Positions 24,001 through 39,000 of a stretch of DNA of 46,896 nucleotides are shown here, in pieces (positions within the stretch are counted from its first letter, which is position 1; every line of letters starts with the position of its first letter). This DNA comes from a plasmid. The position numbers are program-made. The stretch lies in sequence record NZ_CP107261.1; one strand, given 5' to 3'.

Positions 24001-27000
24001 ATGAGTATTTCCAGGCTGGCCAGACAGCTCAGCCCAAAGGATGCAAAAGGGAAAGTCATTCCCGAAACAGAAGTCACGGTATCCCGTCTTTCCAGCCTTA
24101 TCTCAGAGCAGGTGCGTTTCGGCACGCTGGGGGTATCAGAAGAAACCACATGGGATCGTGAATCCCGCAAGCGAATGCCAAAGTACGTCTGGATAACCTT
24201 AATCGGCTGGAACATGTTGGGCGTTGATTTGATGAAACTGGAGGCGCAACAGTTAAAACGCCTGCGTGAGTGTGAAGAGCGTCGTCGGCTCATTGAGGAA
24301 GGCATTCTGCGCGAGGATGAAGATATTTCGGTCCATGCAGCCAGAAAGCGCTGGTATCTGCAACGCAGTCAGGAAGCGCTCAAATACCGTCGCGAGAAAG
24401 GCGCAGCCCGAAAGCGCGCTAACCGCCTGGCCAGGCTGCCGCAGGATCGCCAGGTTTACGAGATGAGCAGGCATATTCTGAAAACGCTGCCTCCGGACGA
24501 AGCGTACTGGTGTACTGATGAGCGTCTTAAAAAACTGGCTGTCCAGCAATTGTACCAGCTCGAGCTGACGCTGAGCGCCTCACCGCCACACTAGGCCGAA
24601 CAGCATAGTCCACACTCATCACCAAGCCCCTCCGGGGCTTTTGGTGCTGGCACCGCTTACCCTTTTTCTCTGCTATCCGCCTGACATCCCTTCCAGACTG
24701 TCTCTTTTTCCCGTTTGAACCTACTCTCGTAATCATCCCTGTATCGAATCTCTCATTTATCCACATCTTTCCGCAAACAGATAAATCAAAGCATCCGCAA
24801 ACAGATATCAGCGAACCCGGAAAATAATCTTAACCCCCGATCTTCATCCCCTTCAGTAACCTTTCAGGGAAACTGTTTATCTTCTGAAACCATGTGGAAA
24901 AACCACATTACCCATCTTTGACTGCACGAAAATCAGAGTTAGCACCCGCCACAAGTGGCGGGCATAGCGACAGCAGGTTCCAGCAACCACTGCATTTCAA
25001 TTCTGACTGCGCACATTGGTGACACCGAGCACCTCACCCACCACTGAAAAGCGCCGCCGCCCGGCCCGAAGGGCCGGAAGACATCGCTTTTAATAATGGA
25101 TGTTGTAACTAGTAATCTGAGCCGCTTCAGATATCCTCGCATCAGGTCTTGCAGTACACGCTCGTAAGCGGCCCTGCCGGCCCGCATAACGCGGAGATAC
25201 GCCCCGACTGCGGCTTTGCCTTGTCGGGACCACTCCGACCGCGTACAGAAGCACCTGAGTCGCTGTAGGCGGGTATGGCTTATCAGGGCGAAGGGATGGA
25301 TTGGTGGAAACTATCAACTCTGTAGCCGGCTTCGCCGGGTGACGGCGCCATTCAGTAGCAGAGACATCCTCAGCAACTGCTGGCGCCTCCATGCGCCTGC
25401 AGCGCATCACAAACCCACCATATTTATACTTTTAAATCATGAGATTATTGATCCTCAGGATGATTTAATGCGATATGCTCACCGGTGTGACCTGGTGAAA
25501 GCGTCACCACCTTCAGTAAACCGTTTCGTCCGGGCGGCCTTAAGCATCACCTGATTCTGGCTCGCCTGGTAAACCCGTATCGATGAACTGCAGAAAGGAG
25601 TTGCCTGTGGCAGATAATTCAGGAAGGAGAGGTTCTGTTGAAATATCGGAGATCGTCAGAGCACCGGCATGGCGCAGGGTTCTTGACTGGTCGCGTGAGG
25701 AGCTGCTGCACCGCCTTGGCCAGCCGGCAGGGCTTGAAAGAGTAATAAAAACCGGCGTGCTGGTTCCCTGTTCCATAACACCACCTGCGGATACGTTCTG
25801 GGCACGGTCAGTAACTGCCTGGGATACGTGGCTGGATCCTTCATCTTCTTATTTTGCCCGCCCCTATACGCTTGATTACCGTAAACCCGACGGCACAGGC
25901 CATCTTGAGGGGCACCTGATTACGATCCCGGAGGCTGAAAATCTCATTCAGGAAGAGATAATTCACGATTTTCAGTGTGACATCAGTTTACTGAGAGGGA
26001 TGTCCAGTTCGAAGTCAGAGAGCCATAACATCACCGATATTAACGATCTTGCGGTGCTGCGCAGTCCCAAACTGGCCGAACCCGTCACCCCGGAACATCT
26101 TCAGGAGAATATGTCTCATGGCGGGTTGCGCCTCGATCGGATGCGGTTTGCGGAATATCCGTGGTCTGAACGCCGGTACTACTGGCACAATGACGACGGC
26201 TCTCATCATTTCAGCGCTGCCCGCTATCAGGCTGGCCGCCTGCAGCAGCCTGTTCCGCTGACAGGGACGCTGCGCCGCTACAGTGTGAATGTGCAGATGG
26301 TGCCTGCATTGCGTAACAAATGGCAGATGTTTGTGATCCCGAAGGAAGAGCTGTTCGGCAGTTTTTATGAATCAATGAAAGCCTTTGAGAGCCCGTTTGC
26401 CTGGTCAGCGTTACCTGAGAACATGCACGATCCGAGAACGAATGGCACAGAGCTGTGCATCGTATGGCTGGAACGGGATAACGCCAGAGCCAGTTCCGCG
26501 GCAACCGTTCTGGCCAGATATGGATTCCCGGACTTCGGCGAGATGCTGACAGGACTTGCCAGATACGGGCAAAGGAATTCAGTGCTGGCCGGTTAGTTGT
26601 CGCTTTTCTGCATCTTTCGCCAGCGCCATGGTTCTGCCGGCGCTGGCTCTGCCCAGAGTCCTTTTCGGTTCTTACGGGCAGTTTCCTCTAAATCTGCGTA
26701 TGCCGGTACCATCGCCTTGCCCCTGTAGGGGTCGTCTCAGAAAACGGAAAATAAAGCACGCTAAGCCGGTTGCAGCGGCCGTAGCGGCCTGAACTTGCCC
26801 GCGCCGATCTTGGCGCTGCTGCGCCAGAGGTAATCGCCGGTCAGGTTGATGTGCTCCCAGCCGAGCGGCGACAGGTACTGCAACAGGCCGTCATCGACGG
26901 CTTGACCGTGGCCACGCAAGGCGTTCGCGGCCCGCTCCAGATAGACCGTGTTCCATAGCACGATGGCCGCCGTCACCAGGTTGAGGCCGCTGGCCCGGTA

Positions 27001-36000: not shown

Positions 36001-39000
36001 CAGACCGACCGAACCGGTCATTTTCCACGCCACACCTTTGAGTCCGATAGTGGCAATAGCCGTGGCAATGGAAAGCCAAGCGTAGTGCGTCAGCGGATGA
36101 GGTAACCCTTTTGTTTTAGTCATTATTAACTTCCTAAAATAGGACGACTAACTCACATTTCTATCCATGATAGATAATTAAACAATCATTTCGCCATGAA
36201 TATTTTTTCGTTTTTATTAAATTTAATTAAAAAGTCTCTGCAAGTGCTGTTTCATCTTCTAGTAAACTAAATTTTATTTTTAGGGTTTTCTTCAACTTGA
36301 AGTAATATTATCTCACAACAGATTAGTCACTTAGGTTAACTGAGCGGCTTTTATATTTTTCAATTAAAATATGCAAAACTCCCATTGCACCATGTGCATA
36401 AAAATAGACCTCAATGAAAGTAGTAAAGAACTTATGCCAGTGGATTACTGTTTCAGCCAGATTTGACTGCATGGTATTCAACAAGAACCATAGGCCACCT
36501 GAAAGTGCTACAATTAGCAATGCTAGAACTCCAAATCCTTGGATTGTACTGGCAATACCTCCCGAATGTGCATCGGGCAGTCGGAAACTAGTCAACGTTT
36601 TTATATCTTGCTTAATACCACTAAAGTCAAGCCCTACCCATGAAAAATAATAAGTAAAACCTCTTTGAGTAAGCATCCAACTTAACATAATAAAACCACA
36701 AATAATCAGTCCTAACCCTGAAATAATGTGCATCCAGGTTATAACTCCTTCAAGACTATGTTCACCAATTGCTTCGGTCTCTGTCAGATTAGAGTTAATA
36801 ATTTGTGATAATATTAGAAATGCCACAATGATGTGAAGAATACGAAAAAAAGGAGCGTAATCATGGGGTAATAGATTCCAGAGTCGCAATTTCATTAATG
36901 AGTCCTTAGTAAATTTATCGATGATCTTAATCATACAAAAGAATTATTAGGATAACCTTAATTCTTAAAATTGCAGCAGGCATTAGTTCACCTCTGATAT
37001 GGCCACTTGCGAAATGGGAATGGTAACTGTTATTACTATGTGTTTACTTGCTGTTCTTGTTACGCAGCCCCTTAAACACATTACTTTCAAATATGATTTC
37101 CTGCTGGGTTTAAATATGTGTCTTTCTATAGTGCGGCAACCTATTTTTACACCAACTCATGAATTAAATAAGAATCATAAATTAAATGAGAGGTTTAATT
37201 CTCTTGCTTAACGCGATGATATTAAATGGAAATTTTAATTTTTGTAATTTATTAAACAGTTAGAATGAGACATGGTAAATACGATCTTCCTTTAGATAAT
37301 TCTGATAGCACTTTTTCTACTGGGCAGTCTGCAATGTCCGCTTCTCGCTCAAAGCTGCCTGTCAAAGTGGTCAAGCTCTACCACAGCTCAGAGGTACAAA
37401 AAATCACCTTAACGTACAATAATTTTCGATATCCAAACTGACCCCGTGTTGTGGCGCAACACAGTTGCGTAATGGTGATCAGGCACCGGCCTGCCGGTCT
37501 ACTGCTGCTTTCTTTATGCTGCATTTCTTGTCACTCTTTCGTCCTGCATCTGCAGAATTTTTACGGCATGACTGATGTTCAGCCCGGTCATATTGGTGTT
37601 CAGTTCCTTCATCATCGCTGCGCTGGCCAACACGACGTTGTTGTCGAGACATCCCTGATATGCTTTTGAGGTCACTATCGTCAGTTGCTCACGCGAGGTC
37701 AGCTCATTGCGGCCTGAGCATAGATCGGGGTTTGAGGTCCAATGATGTAAAAAACCACGATAAGAAGATAACCTGCTGTTTTTATTTAAAAAAAGCAGAA
37801 ACCTTTCTGTTGTTAATGTTTTTTAACTTTTCTCCTTGAAAAATAAAGGATTGCCCCACTATCATGGTCGAATAAATAACTAATTTGTGCGGATTTAGGA
37901 GGCCGCTTGGAAAGGCACTGTTGCAAATAGTCGGTGGTGATAAACTTATCATCCCCTTTTGCTGATGGAGCTGCACATGAACCCATTCAAAGGCCGGCAT
38001 TTTCAGCGTGACATCATTCTGTGGGCCGTACGCTGGTACTGCAAATACGGCATCAGTTACCGTGAGCTGCAGGAGATGCTGGCTGAACGCGGAGTGAATG
38101 TCGATCACTCCACGATTTACCGCTGGGTTCAGCGTTATGCGCCTGAAATGGAAAAACGGCTGCGCTGGTACTGGCGTAACCCTTCCGATCTTTGCCCGTG
38201 GCACATGGATGAAACCTACGTGAAGGTCAATGGCCGCTGGGCGTATCTGTACCGGGCCGTCGACAGCCGGAGCCGCACTGTCGATTTTTATCTCTCCTCC
38301 CGTCGTAACAGCAAAGCTGCATACCGGTTTCTGGGTAAAATCCTCAACAACGTGAAGAAGTGGCAGATCCCGCGATTCATCAACACGGATAAAGCGCCCG
38401 CCTATGGTCGCGCGCTTGCTCTGCTCAAACGCGAAGGCCGGTGCCCGTCTGACGTTGAACACCGACAGATTAAGTACCGGAACAACGTGATTGAATGCGA
38501 TCATGGCAAACTGAAACGGATAATCGGCGCCACGCTGGGATTTAAATCCATGAAGACGGCTTACGCCACCATCAAAGGTATTGAGGTGATGCGTGCACTA
38601 CGCAAAGGCCAGGCCTCAGCATTTTATTATGGTGATCCCCTGGGCGAAATGCGCCTGGTAAGCAGAGTTTTTGAAATGTAAGGCCTTTGAATAAGACAAA
38701 AGGCTGCCTCATCGCTAACTTTGCAACAGTGCCCCCTTACGGACAGACTTCACGGCCTCGACAGTGGAGCAGACGATTACCTAATTAAACCGTTCGAGTT
38801 CAGCGAACTGCTCGCGCGGATACGCGCTGTTTTGCGACGACATAACGGCAACAGTGATCGATTGCTGAGTAACGGTGTGCTCAGCCTGAACCCGGTCAGT
38901 CACGAAGTGTGTTTGTTGGCCAGCGGAGAGAACTTTTTACTTTCGAAGCGCGAGTATGCTCTTCTGGAAGCACTCATGCAGCGCCCCGGCGGTATTCTCT

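What the first reader, a model, noticed from the sequence alone, without database searches (positions are those of the whole stretch)
26560..37524. One thermonuclease-like gene cut into three pieces by two independent Tn3-family insertions, each with an intact 5-bp TSD
On the - strand the SNase-like frame 31123-30802 reads straight into the Tn21-type IR. After removing that element and one CTGTA copy, the frame continues at 26727 downwards (..YRYRGKAMGPAYADLEETARKNRKGLWAEP..). At its 5' end the gene abuts the other transposon's IR. After removing that element and one GTGTT copy, an in-frame start with a hydrophobic leader is found at 37524-37451 (MQHKESSSRPAGRCLITITQLCCA..). Both insertions are therefore simple transpositions into the same gene, and the ancestral backbone can be reconstructed exactly.
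Basis: seen in the sequence. Interest (0 to 1): 0.6.

Follow-up and report, generated by a model that had tools for sequence, protein, structure and literature searches.

The report
Plasmid nuclease gene split by two transposons
A plasmid gene for a staphylococcal-nuclease-like enzyme has been cut into three pieces by two separate Tn3-family transposon insertions; this is ordinary mobile-element wear and tear, and the same scar is already present in many public assemblies.

Summary
A 531-nt SNase-family gene (176 aa, minus strand) lies in three pieces: 37524-37451, 31123-30802 and 26727-26593.

- **Element A** (26728-30796, 4069 bp) has perfect 38/39-bp GGGG-type terminal repeats and the 5-bp duplication CTGTA.
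- **Element B** (31124-37445, 6322 bp) has 49-nt repeats (94%) and the duplication GTGTT.
- **Restored gene:** removing each element plus one duplication copy gives an open frame. It is gap-free against intact 176-aa alleles (520/530 nt identical), which carry each target pentamer once.

Refinements:
- A is a non-autonomous ISPa38-like derivative. Its transposase has an in-frame 718-codon deletion. The same 4069-bp form sits elsewhere with different duplications, so it moved with a transposase supplied in trans.
- B is an intact TnEc1-type transposon.
- Sister contigs carry B at the same junction with A's site empty, so B came first.
- Only the gene can be rebuilt. Its upstream operon is truncated and capped by IS26.
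- The identical double scar occurs in at least nine other public contigs. Its middle fragment is annotated in NCBI as a 123-aa "thermonuclease family protein".

Verdict: real, correctly interpreted, not novel. One lead: related plasmids show three further Tn3-type junctions in this gene.

The parts
26593..26727 (-). 3' piece of the SNase-family nuclease gene (gene nt 397-531, including the stop). Its first 5 nt (26723-26727, CTGTA on +) are one copy of element A's target duplication.
   Evidence: the frame continues ...YRYRGKAMVPAYADLEETARKNRKGLWAEPAPAEPWRWRKMQKSDN* and is colinear with intact alleles.
26728..30796 (.). Element A: a 4069-bp non-autonomous ISPa38-like (Tn21-type repeat) Tn3-family derivative. 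Terminal repeats at 26728-26766 and 30758-30796.
   Evidence: 39-nt repeats, 100%; 100% identity to plasmid copies annotated 'Tn3-like element ISPa38 family'; equals the 6223-bp element minus 2154 bp.
26761..27573 (-). Deleted transposase gene of A (270 aa). Residues 1-173 are fused in frame to about 889-988 of the 988-aa TnpA. The deletion junction is at about 27055-27062, with 8-bp microhomology. The central part of the protein (about residues 174-888) is missing.
   Evidence: (NF033527 264.6 bits, below the 500 cut-off, two stretches).
27732..30212 (+). Passenger genes of A: MntA-like nucleotidyltransferase (27732-28022), HepT/DUF86-like (28019-28420), cupin (28410-28766), and three hypothetical proteins (29021-29347, 29344-29844, 29841-30212).
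   Evidence: Annotation of identical copies. Pfam families on record. Weak NCBIfam MntA/HepT hits below cut-off.
30206..30763 (+). Serine resolvase (tnpR) of A. Its stop codon lies inside the right terminal repeat.
   Evidence: PF00239 Resolvase.
30797..31123 (-). Middle piece of the nuclease gene (gene nt 75-396 = 31123-30802) plus the second CTGTA copy (30797-30801). 31119-31123 (GTGTT) is one copy of B's duplication. The open frame 30760-31131 (123 aa) is a chimera that starts in B's terminal repeat and ends in A's.
31124..37445 (.). Element B: an intact 6322-bp TnEc1-type Tn3-family transposon. Terminal repeats at 31124-31172 and 37397-37445.
   Evidence: A 99.9%-identical single-piece copy in pDW108-119542 is flanked by a different duplication, AATTA.
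31147..34134 (-). Transposase (tnpA, 995 aa) of B.
   Evidence: (NF033527 1125.6 bits, cut-off 500).
34302..34943 (+). Resolvase (tnpR) of B, divergent from tnpA.
   Evidence: PF00239.
35200..36934 (-). Passenger genes of B: cation-diffusion-facilitator transporter (35200-36123) and a cytochrome b-type protein (36323-36895/36934).
   Evidence: TIGR01297 235 bits, cut-off 82. (PF01545, PF01292).
37446..37524 (-). Second GTGTT copy (37446-37450) and the 5' piece of the nuclease gene (37524-37451, gene nt 1-74: MQHKESSSRPAGRCLITITQLCCA, the N-terminal hydrophobic leader).
37514..37726 (-). Remnant (last ~213 nt) of the upstream DUF6884 gene, which overlaps the nuclease start in intact relatives.
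   Evidence: 98.6% to L005 5799-6074; the match stops at about 37726.
37914..38733 (.). IS26. It caps the truncated upstream region and begins the mcr-9 module. It is context, not part of the two insertions.
   Evidence: two exact GGCACTGTTGCAAA ends; IS6-family transposase.
25583..26596 (+). Convergent DUF6685 gene, overlapping the nuclease stop by 4 nt as in intact relatives (context).

Best explanation
A plasmid-borne SNase-type nuclease gene was inactivated by two successive, independent replicative transpositions of unrelated Tn3-family elements. The gene encodes 176 aa with an N-terminal hydrophobic leader. It is the last gene of a DUF6884-nuclease operon, about 2 kb from an IncFII repA.

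**First event.** An intact, autonomous TnEc1-type transposon (B, 6322 bp) inserted at gene nt 75-79, inside the leader, and duplicated AACAC (GTGTT on the + strand).

**Second event.** A 4069-bp ISPa38-like element (A) inserted 322 nt downstream at gene nt 397-401 and duplicated TACAG (CTGTA on the + strand). A cannot transpose on its own. Its transposase lost 718 codons in frame, and only the two ends of the protein remain. A keeps perfect 39-bp ends and its resolvase. It was therefore moved by a cognate transposase supplied in trans (inferred), and the cointegrate was then resolved to a simple insertion (inferred from the Tn3-family mechanism).

**Consequence.** The gene is a three-piece pseudogene. 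The open 123-aa middle fragment is a chimera with the terminal repeats, not a functional protein (inferred).

Shown directly: the junctions, the duplications, the restored ORF, the element identities, the order of events and the occurrence elsewhere. Inferred: the helper transposase, cointegrate resolution and loss of nuclease function.
For: - **Junctions, duplications and restored frame:**; the repeat pairs are confirmed independently.
- **The restored protein is SNase-family:** PF00565, 81.9 bits. It aligns to staphylococcal nuclease across the DGDT, R, DxPE and DxYxR motifs.
- **Gap-free colinearity with intact alleles:** 520/530 nt, each pentamer present once. An intact 176-aa Leclercia plasmid gene matches at 86% nt.
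- **B is a complete Tn3-family element:** TnpA 1125.6 bits. It is named TnEc1 by depositors. It is found intact elsewhere with the duplication AATTA.
- **A equals the ISPa38-like element minus 2154 bp:**
- **A moved as the deleted form:** the identical 4069-bp form occurs in pCAV1042-183 with AGGTT and in pFK2020ZBJ35 with AGAAG.
- **Order of events:** L018 and L019 have the B junction with A's site empty. No fetched locus has A with B's site empty.
- **Same double scar elsewhere:** nine other contigs from NCBI, ENA, Logan and JGI.
- **No decay since disruption:** all family-invariant residues are retained. The six differences from the nearest intact allele fall in variable columns.
Against: - The helper transposase for A is not in this window. 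The two other Tn3-family transposases here are only 56-57% identical to the ISPa38-like TnpA and have different terminal repeats.
- One copy of the 4069-bp form (pCFSAN006211) has no duplication, so not all copies arrived by simple insertion.
- The upstream operon was also destroyed. The nuclease gene may therefore already have been silent before either insertion.
- No uninterrupted allele identical to this one was found. The closest is 98% nt.
Confidence: 0.93

Rival explanations
1. Element A inserted as a full-length, autonomous 6.2-kb ISPa38-like transposon, and its transposase gene was deleted afterwards in place.
For: The deletion is flanked by 8-bp microhomology, so it is a kind of event that can recur. 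No helper transposase is visible in the window.
Against: The same 4069-bp form, with the same breakpoints and 100% identity, lies at unrelated sites with different 5-bp duplications: AGGTT, AGAAG and CTGTA. That requires either transposition of the already-deleted form or three identical independent deletions. All nine other contigs with this scar carry the deleted form wherever that part is covered.
Confidence: 0.05
2. The two hits in one 531-bp gene are not coincidence plus neutrality. The gene or its neighbourhood next to the IncFII origin is a preferred target region for Tn3-family transposition.
For: - Related alleles carry three further, different Tn3-type terminal-repeat junctions.
  - The SulP transposon sits at gene nt 431-435 with the duplication ATTTA in L018/L019.
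  - An ars-carrying element abuts at about nt 293 in L020/L021.
  - A Tn21-type end abuts at about nt 280 in p16005813C.
- In p707804-1FII, mer genes typical of Tn21-type transposons lie just beyond the neighbouring DUF6685 gene.
- A Ter-like sequence lies 1.5 kb away.
Against: - The sampling was centred on this gene, so insertions elsewhere were never counted. The apparent enrichment is biased.
- The gene is dispensable, and insertions in it are simply tolerated and inherited.
- An IS66-family element also hits it, which argues for tolerance rather than Tn3-specific targeting.
- The gene is not AT-rich: 52.5% GC against 51.1% for the window.
- The Ter-like match is not significant on its own (31 of 100 shuffles give at least one match).
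Confidence: 0.15
3. The flanking 5-bp repeats are coincidental. The arrangement arose by recombination between elements or unresolved cointegrates, not by simple insertions.
For: Such rearrangements do occur here: the third Tn3-family element in this window (14264-22068) has no duplication.
Against: Both elements have matching 5-bp flanks. Excision restores a gap-free, in-frame gene 98% identical to intact alleles that carry each pentamer once.
Confidence: 0.01

Closest known systems
ISPa38 / TnPa38-like elements of Klebsiella plasmids (Tn3 family)
   Same: 39-bp terminal repeats, transposase plus resolvase plus six passenger genes, and 5-bp target duplications in Enterobacterales plasmids, as described in PMC12466754. 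Element A is 100% identical, outside the deletion, to plasmid copies that NCBI annotates as 'Tn3-like element ISPa38 family'.
   Different: A lacks 2154 bp of tnpA, so it is 4069 bp against 6223 bp, and is non-autonomous. The published P. aeruginosa ISPa38 is given as 6455 bp. I did not compare A with that reference.
TnEc1 (Tn3-family transposon carrying a CDF transporter)
   Same: Element B is 99.9-100% identical to copies whose transposase is labelled 'Tn3 family transposase TnEc1' by depositors. It has the same gene set (tnpA, tnpR, CDF transporter, cytochrome b) and a 5-bp duplication.
   Different: Nothing structural, only a new insertion site. I could not check the ISfinder reference entry.
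Non-autonomous Tn3-family derivatives mobilised in trans (for example the TIME elements; from my own knowledge of the field)
   Same: Intact terminal repeats, no functional transposase, and copies at several sites with different 5-bp duplications.
   Different: A is not miniature. It keeps its resolvase and six passenger genes, and an in-frame 270-aa transposase remnant.
Staphylococcal nuclease (thermonuclease) family, including plasmid nucleases often annotated 'ParB' or 'nuclease'
   Same: PF00565 domain. It aligns with the solved SNase over residues 42-160, including the Ca-binding and catalytic motifs. Homologues lie on at least 5000 plasmid records, often next to a DUF6884 gene.
   Different: Here the gene is a three-piece pseudogene. 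No activity or role of this plasmid subfamily was tested.

Membership tests
Tn3-family transposon (element B) | Terminal inverted repeats of about 38-40 bp beginning GGGG | tested here: met
   49-nt arms, 94% complementary, GGGGTCA(A/G)TTTGG....
Tn3-family transposon (element B) | Large (~1000 aa) Tn3-type DDE transposase | tested here: met
   995 aa, NF033527 1125.6 bits against a cut-off of 500, profile covered 2-954 of 954.
Tn3-family transposon (element B) | Site-specific resolvase with an adjacent res site | tested here: inconclusive
   A serine recombinase gene lies divergent from tnpA. The res site in the 34135-34301 spacer was not analysed.
Tn3-family transposon (element B) | 5-bp target-site duplication | tested here: met
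   GTGTT on both sides here, and AATTA at another site.
Tn3-family transposon (element A) | Terminal inverted repeats of about 38 bp beginning GGGG | tested here: met
   39 nt, 100%. Their identity to the Tn21 repeat is recalled from memory, not tested.
Tn3-family transposon (element A) | Functional Tn3-type transposase (autonomy) | tested here: not met
   A 270-aa remnant, 264.6 bits against a cut-off of 500. Residues ~174-888 are deleted. A is a derivative, not an autonomous member.
Tn3-family transposon (element A) | 5-bp target-site duplication | tested here: met
   CTGTA here; AGGTT and AGAAG elsewhere.
SNase / thermonuclease family (restored gene) | PF00565 domain above the gathering score | tested here: met
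   81.9 bits against 21, profile 1-106 of 107.
SNase / thermonuclease family (restored gene) | Conserved Ca-binding and catalytic residues (SNase D21, R35, D40, E43, R87) | tested here: met
   Aligned DGDT, iRL, iDaPE and drYdR motifs. D47, G48, T50, R64, D69, E72 and R106 are invariant in 65 homologues. The residue roles come from my knowledge of SNase.
SNase / thermonuclease family (restored gene) | Nuclease activity and export via the N-terminal leader | not testable with these tools
   The leader was judged by eye only: K/R-rich start, hydrophobic stretch, S-H-A before DIRG.

The most novel reading that the evidence does not exclude
The nuclease gene, or the roughly 2-kb zone just beyond the IncFII repA, is a genuine regional hot spot for Tn3-family transposition. 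A Ter-like sequence lies in that zone. At least five different Tn3-type ends have landed in 531 bp across closely related plasmids (gene nt 75, about 280, about 293, 397 and 431). One possible cause is that these elements target a replication-related structure there or an existing Tn3-type end. If so, the site would act as a predictable landing pad where resistance and metal-tolerance transposons accumulate next to mcr-9.
Probability: 0.12. Interest if true: 0.5.

Novelty: already known. Interest (0 to 1): 0.15.

Why it matters
This matters little as biology. It is a clean example of insertional gene disruption by Tn3-family transposons, with both elements and the mechanism already known.

It has three practical uses:
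1. The two junctions form a precise lineage marker for an mcr-9-associated plasmid segment that already circulates in several backbones and samples.
2. It shows that a 4.07-kb transposase-deleted ISPa38-like element is still mobile in trans.
3. It exposes an annotation artefact. The chimeric 123-aa fragment is propagated in NCBI as a "thermonuclease family protein".

The recurrent hits on this gene would matter only if an unbiased survey confirmed a hot spot.

Tried and rejected
- **Metagenome scans.** I made two exact-pattern scans of metagenome contigs. One used the intact B-site 44-mer and one used the B junction. Both returned nothing. The second pattern is present in JGI contigs already in hand, so that collection does not hold the relevant samples. 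These negatives are uninformative.
- **Genome scan.** The genome-contig scan with the restored protein returned one close relative (76%) and otherwise distant homologues at 35-49%. It gave no information on how often close alleles are disrupted.
- **tblastn against plasmids.** The family is very common and mostly full-length. It cannot separate truncation from N-terminal divergence, so it gave no usable hot-spot statistic.
- **Pseudogene decay.** All six amino-acid differences from the nearest intact allele lie in variable columns, so there is no sign of decay.
- **Literature.** Searches found papers on ISPa38 and TnEc1 but none describing this nuclease-gene scar.
- **Rfam.** Nothing was found inside the finding's coordinates.
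- **Chance and recombination.** I considered and rejected a chance or recombinational origin of the flanking repeats.
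Full report
**Observation.** I read the three junction regions directly and recomputed them.
- Element A runs from 26728 to 30796 (4069 bp). Its ends are identical 38-bp inverted repeats, GGGGTCGTCTCAGAAAACGGAAAATAAAGCACGCTAAG. The repeat finder reports 39 nt at 100%. CTGTA lies at 26723-26727 and again at 30797-30801.
- Element B runs from 31124 to 37445 (6322 bp). Its repeats, GGGGTCA(A/G)TTTGGATATCGAAAATTATTGTACGTTAAGGT..., match 44/47 (49 nt at 94%). GTGTT lies at 31119-31123 and 37446-37450.

**Restored gene.** After excision the minus strand gives a 176-codon open frame:

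MQHKESSSRPAGRCLITITQLCCATTLTIFSFYSHADIRGHVVRILDGDTIEVLQANNELTRIRLNGIDAPEKAQPFGQRSRQALTAMIAGKAVHIAGNNLDRYDRLLGTVWYDLTDINAVQVINGMAWAYRYRGKAMVPAYADLEETARKNRKGLWAEPAPAEPWRWRKMQKSDN*

- It hits Pfam SNase (PF00565) at 81.9 bits against a cut-off of 21.
- It aligns to solved staphylococcal nuclease over residues 42-160, including the DGDT, R, DxPE and DxYxR motifs.
- The large protein collection holds intact 176-aa relatives: P0001 at 97%, P0002 at 86% and a Leclercia plasmid protein at 80%.
- At the DNA level the restored gene is gap-free against four Logan contigs, with 520/530 nt identical. Those intact genes carry AACAC and TACAG once each, exactly at the two sites.
- An intact homologue at 86% nt lies in Leclercia plasmid p707804-1FII. 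It sits between a DUF6685 gene and a DUF6884 gene, the same neighbourhood as in the window and the Logan contigs.

**Element A.**
- It is 100% identical to plasmid elements whose transposase NCBI names "Tn3-like element ISPa38 family". It lacks 2154 bp present in the 6223-bp form. The breakpoints share 8 bp of microhomology.
- The deletion is in frame. The 270-aa product joins TnpA residues 1-173 to about 889-988. It scores 264.6 bits against the Tn3-transposase model, below the 500 cut-off.
- The rest of the element is intact: an MntA/HepT-like pair, a cupin, three hypothetical genes and a serine resolvase whose stop lies in the right repeat.
- The identical 4069-bp form lies in pCAV1042-183 flanked by AGGTT and in pFK2020ZBJ35_tmexCD_325k flanked by AGAAG. 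In pCFSAN006211 it has no duplication.
- Three sites with three different duplications mean the deleted form itself transposes, using a transposase supplied in trans.
- No such helper is in the window. The two complete Tn3-family transposases here are 56-57% identical to the ISPa38-like one and have different ends.
- ISPa38-like elements with 39-bp repeats and 5-bp duplications in Klebsiella plasmids are described in PMC12466754.

**Element B.**
- It is a complete Tn3-family transposon. The transposase has 995 aa and scores 1125.6 bits.
- It also carries a divergent resolvase, a CDF-family transporter and a cytochrome b-type protein.
- Depositors of p6BC1_mcr-9 label its transposase TnEc1. TnEc1 is mentioned in the literature.
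- A 99.9%-identical single-piece copy in pDW108-119542 is flanked by AATTA.

**Order and independence.**
- Two JGI contigs (L018, L019) match the window from 37913 down to 30794 at 99.9-100%. That stretch includes B and its junction. They then read straight through A's site (...YRYRGKAMVPAYADL).
- A few bases further on they are interrupted by a third Tn3-family transposon. It is 7.8 kb and carries SulP, USP and glycosyltransferase genes. It lies at gene nt 431-435 with the duplication ATTTA.
- Among all fetched loci the states are:
  - intact gene: L005-L008;
  - B only, followed by the SulP transposon: L018-L019;
  - B plus A: the window and L009-L017.
  No locus has A with B's site empty.
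- The parsimonious history is B first, then A in the window's lineage and the SulP transposon in the sister lineage.

**Occurrence elsewhere.**
- The window's 123-aa middle-fragment ORF (30760-31131) is in the protein collection on 28 JGI contigs. The version with an M start is in NCBI as "MULTISPECIES: thermonuclease family protein [Leclercia]".
- That ORF begins in B's terminal repeat (LTPT...) and ends in A's (...GSSQKTENKAR). It is an annotation artefact.
- Nine contigs from NCBI, ENA, Logan and JGI show the same double junction.
- Beyond the DUF6685 gene their contexts differ. L010 follows the window down to 22069. L011 (a 570-kb contig) diverges below 25336, and L012 below 25036. The scarred block has therefore been carried between backbones.
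- PLSDB contains no identical copy of the gene pieces.

**Limits of the reconstruction.**
- In intact relatives the nuclease start overlaps the end of a 401-aa DUF6884 gene.
- In the window only the last ~213 nt of that gene remain (37514-37726). They are followed by 187 nt of unrelated sequence and IS26 at 37914-38733. IS26 opens a qseC-like, wbuC and mcr-9 module.
- The gene can be rebuilt exactly, but the ancestral operon cannot. The gene may have lost its promoter independently.
- The disrupted gene shows no decay. All family-invariant residues are kept, and the six differences from P0001 lie in variable columns.

**Why two hits in one gene?**
- Besides A, B and the SulP transposon, two more Tn3-type ends abut related alleles. 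An ars-carrying element abuts at about nt 293 (L020/L021). A Tn21-type end abuts at about nt 280 in p16005813C. An IS66-family element sits at about nt 65 in L022-L024.
- This could reflect targeting. However, every locus was retrieved through this gene, so the count is biased.
- The gene is dispensable and is not AT-rich. A non-Tn3 element also hits it.
- A Ter-like sequence, GGATGTTGTAACTA, lies at 25098-25111 between repA and the DUF6685 gene. It is not significant on its own.
- I rate a true hot spot at roughly 0.12-0.15.

**Verdict.** The finding is real and correctly interpreted. It is a textbook case of known elements acting by a known mechanism, and the allele is already in public data. 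The novelty class is "already known" and the interest is low.

Noticed in passing
window 14264-22068: A third Tn3-family transposon (7.8 kb) carries SulP transporter, universal stress protein and glycosyltransferase genes, plus a resolvase and a 994-aa transposase. Its repeat is GGGGTCCGCTTGGAAAACGGAAAATATCCTACGCTAAG. It has no target duplication here (ATAAA on the left, ATCGA on the right). L010 shows the empty right-hand site with different sequence to its left. The left flank was therefore probably replaced by a transposon-mediated deletion or by recombination between two copies.
   Followed up: partly
L018 7283-15090 and L019; L020/L021 ~8089; L108 ~2496; L022-L024 ~8062: Closely related alleles of the same nuclease gene are interrupted at other positions. 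The interrupting elements are the SulP transposon (duplication ATTTA), an ars-carrying Tn3-type element, a Tn21-type end and an IS66-family element. This may be a hot spot or merely a tolerated dump site. The sampling is biased.
   Followed up: partly
window 30760-31131 (-): The 123-aa open frame is a chimera of B's terminal repeat, the gene's middle piece and A's terminal repeat. It is nevertheless held in NCBI as 'MULTISPECIES: thermonuclease family protein [Leclercia]' (for example UYM53569.1) and on 28 JGI contigs.
   Followed up: yes
window 25098-25111 (+): There is an exact match to the replication-terminator (Ter) core consensus, GGATGTTGTAACTA. It lies about 500 bp beyond the IncFII repA (23551-24594) and 1.5 kb from the nuclease gene. 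It is not significant alone: 31 of 100 shuffles give at least one match.
   Followed up: no
window 37914-43771: An mcr-9 module begins with IS26 (37914-38733). It continues with a response-regulator remnant, a qseC-like kinase (39131-40480), wbuC (40693-41169) and MCR-9 (41246-42901, minus strand; 1316 bits against a cut-off of 1240). An IS1 transposase fragment follows at 43253-43756. The module is 99.9% identical to mcr-9.1 regions of many plasmids.
   Followed up: partly
window 37727-37913: A 187-nt stretch lies between the DUF6884 remnant and IS26. It does not match the intact operon of relatives, and its origin is unknown.
   Followed up: no
window 23039-24594: Two overlapping open frames lie here (178 aa and 347 aa). 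The Pfam families on record give IncFII_repA for both corresponding products in L010. The longer one matches RepA_IncFII_LM only from residue 62. This could be a frameshift or an upstream leader.
   Followed up: no
window 13464-13634 (+): A sok antitoxin RNA of a hok/sok system was found (Rfam RF01794, 92.2 bits). It was the only Rfam hit in the window.
   Followed up: no
L011 (GCA_044703665.1, 569,639-bp contig): The whole scarred block (IS26, B, gene piece, A, gene piece, DUF6685) lies in a 570-kb contig next to PTS, glycoside hydrolase 32 and LacI-type genes. The mcr-9-linked segment may therefore sit in a very large replicon or a chromosome there.
   Followed up: no
window 22025-22068 and 26728-26771: The right end of the SulP transposon and the left end of element A are 80% complementary. 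They bracket a 4.7-kb segment holding repA, the Ter-like site, the DUF6685 gene and the nuclease 3' piece (pair I3). This is probably only family resemblance between the ends.
   Followed up: no
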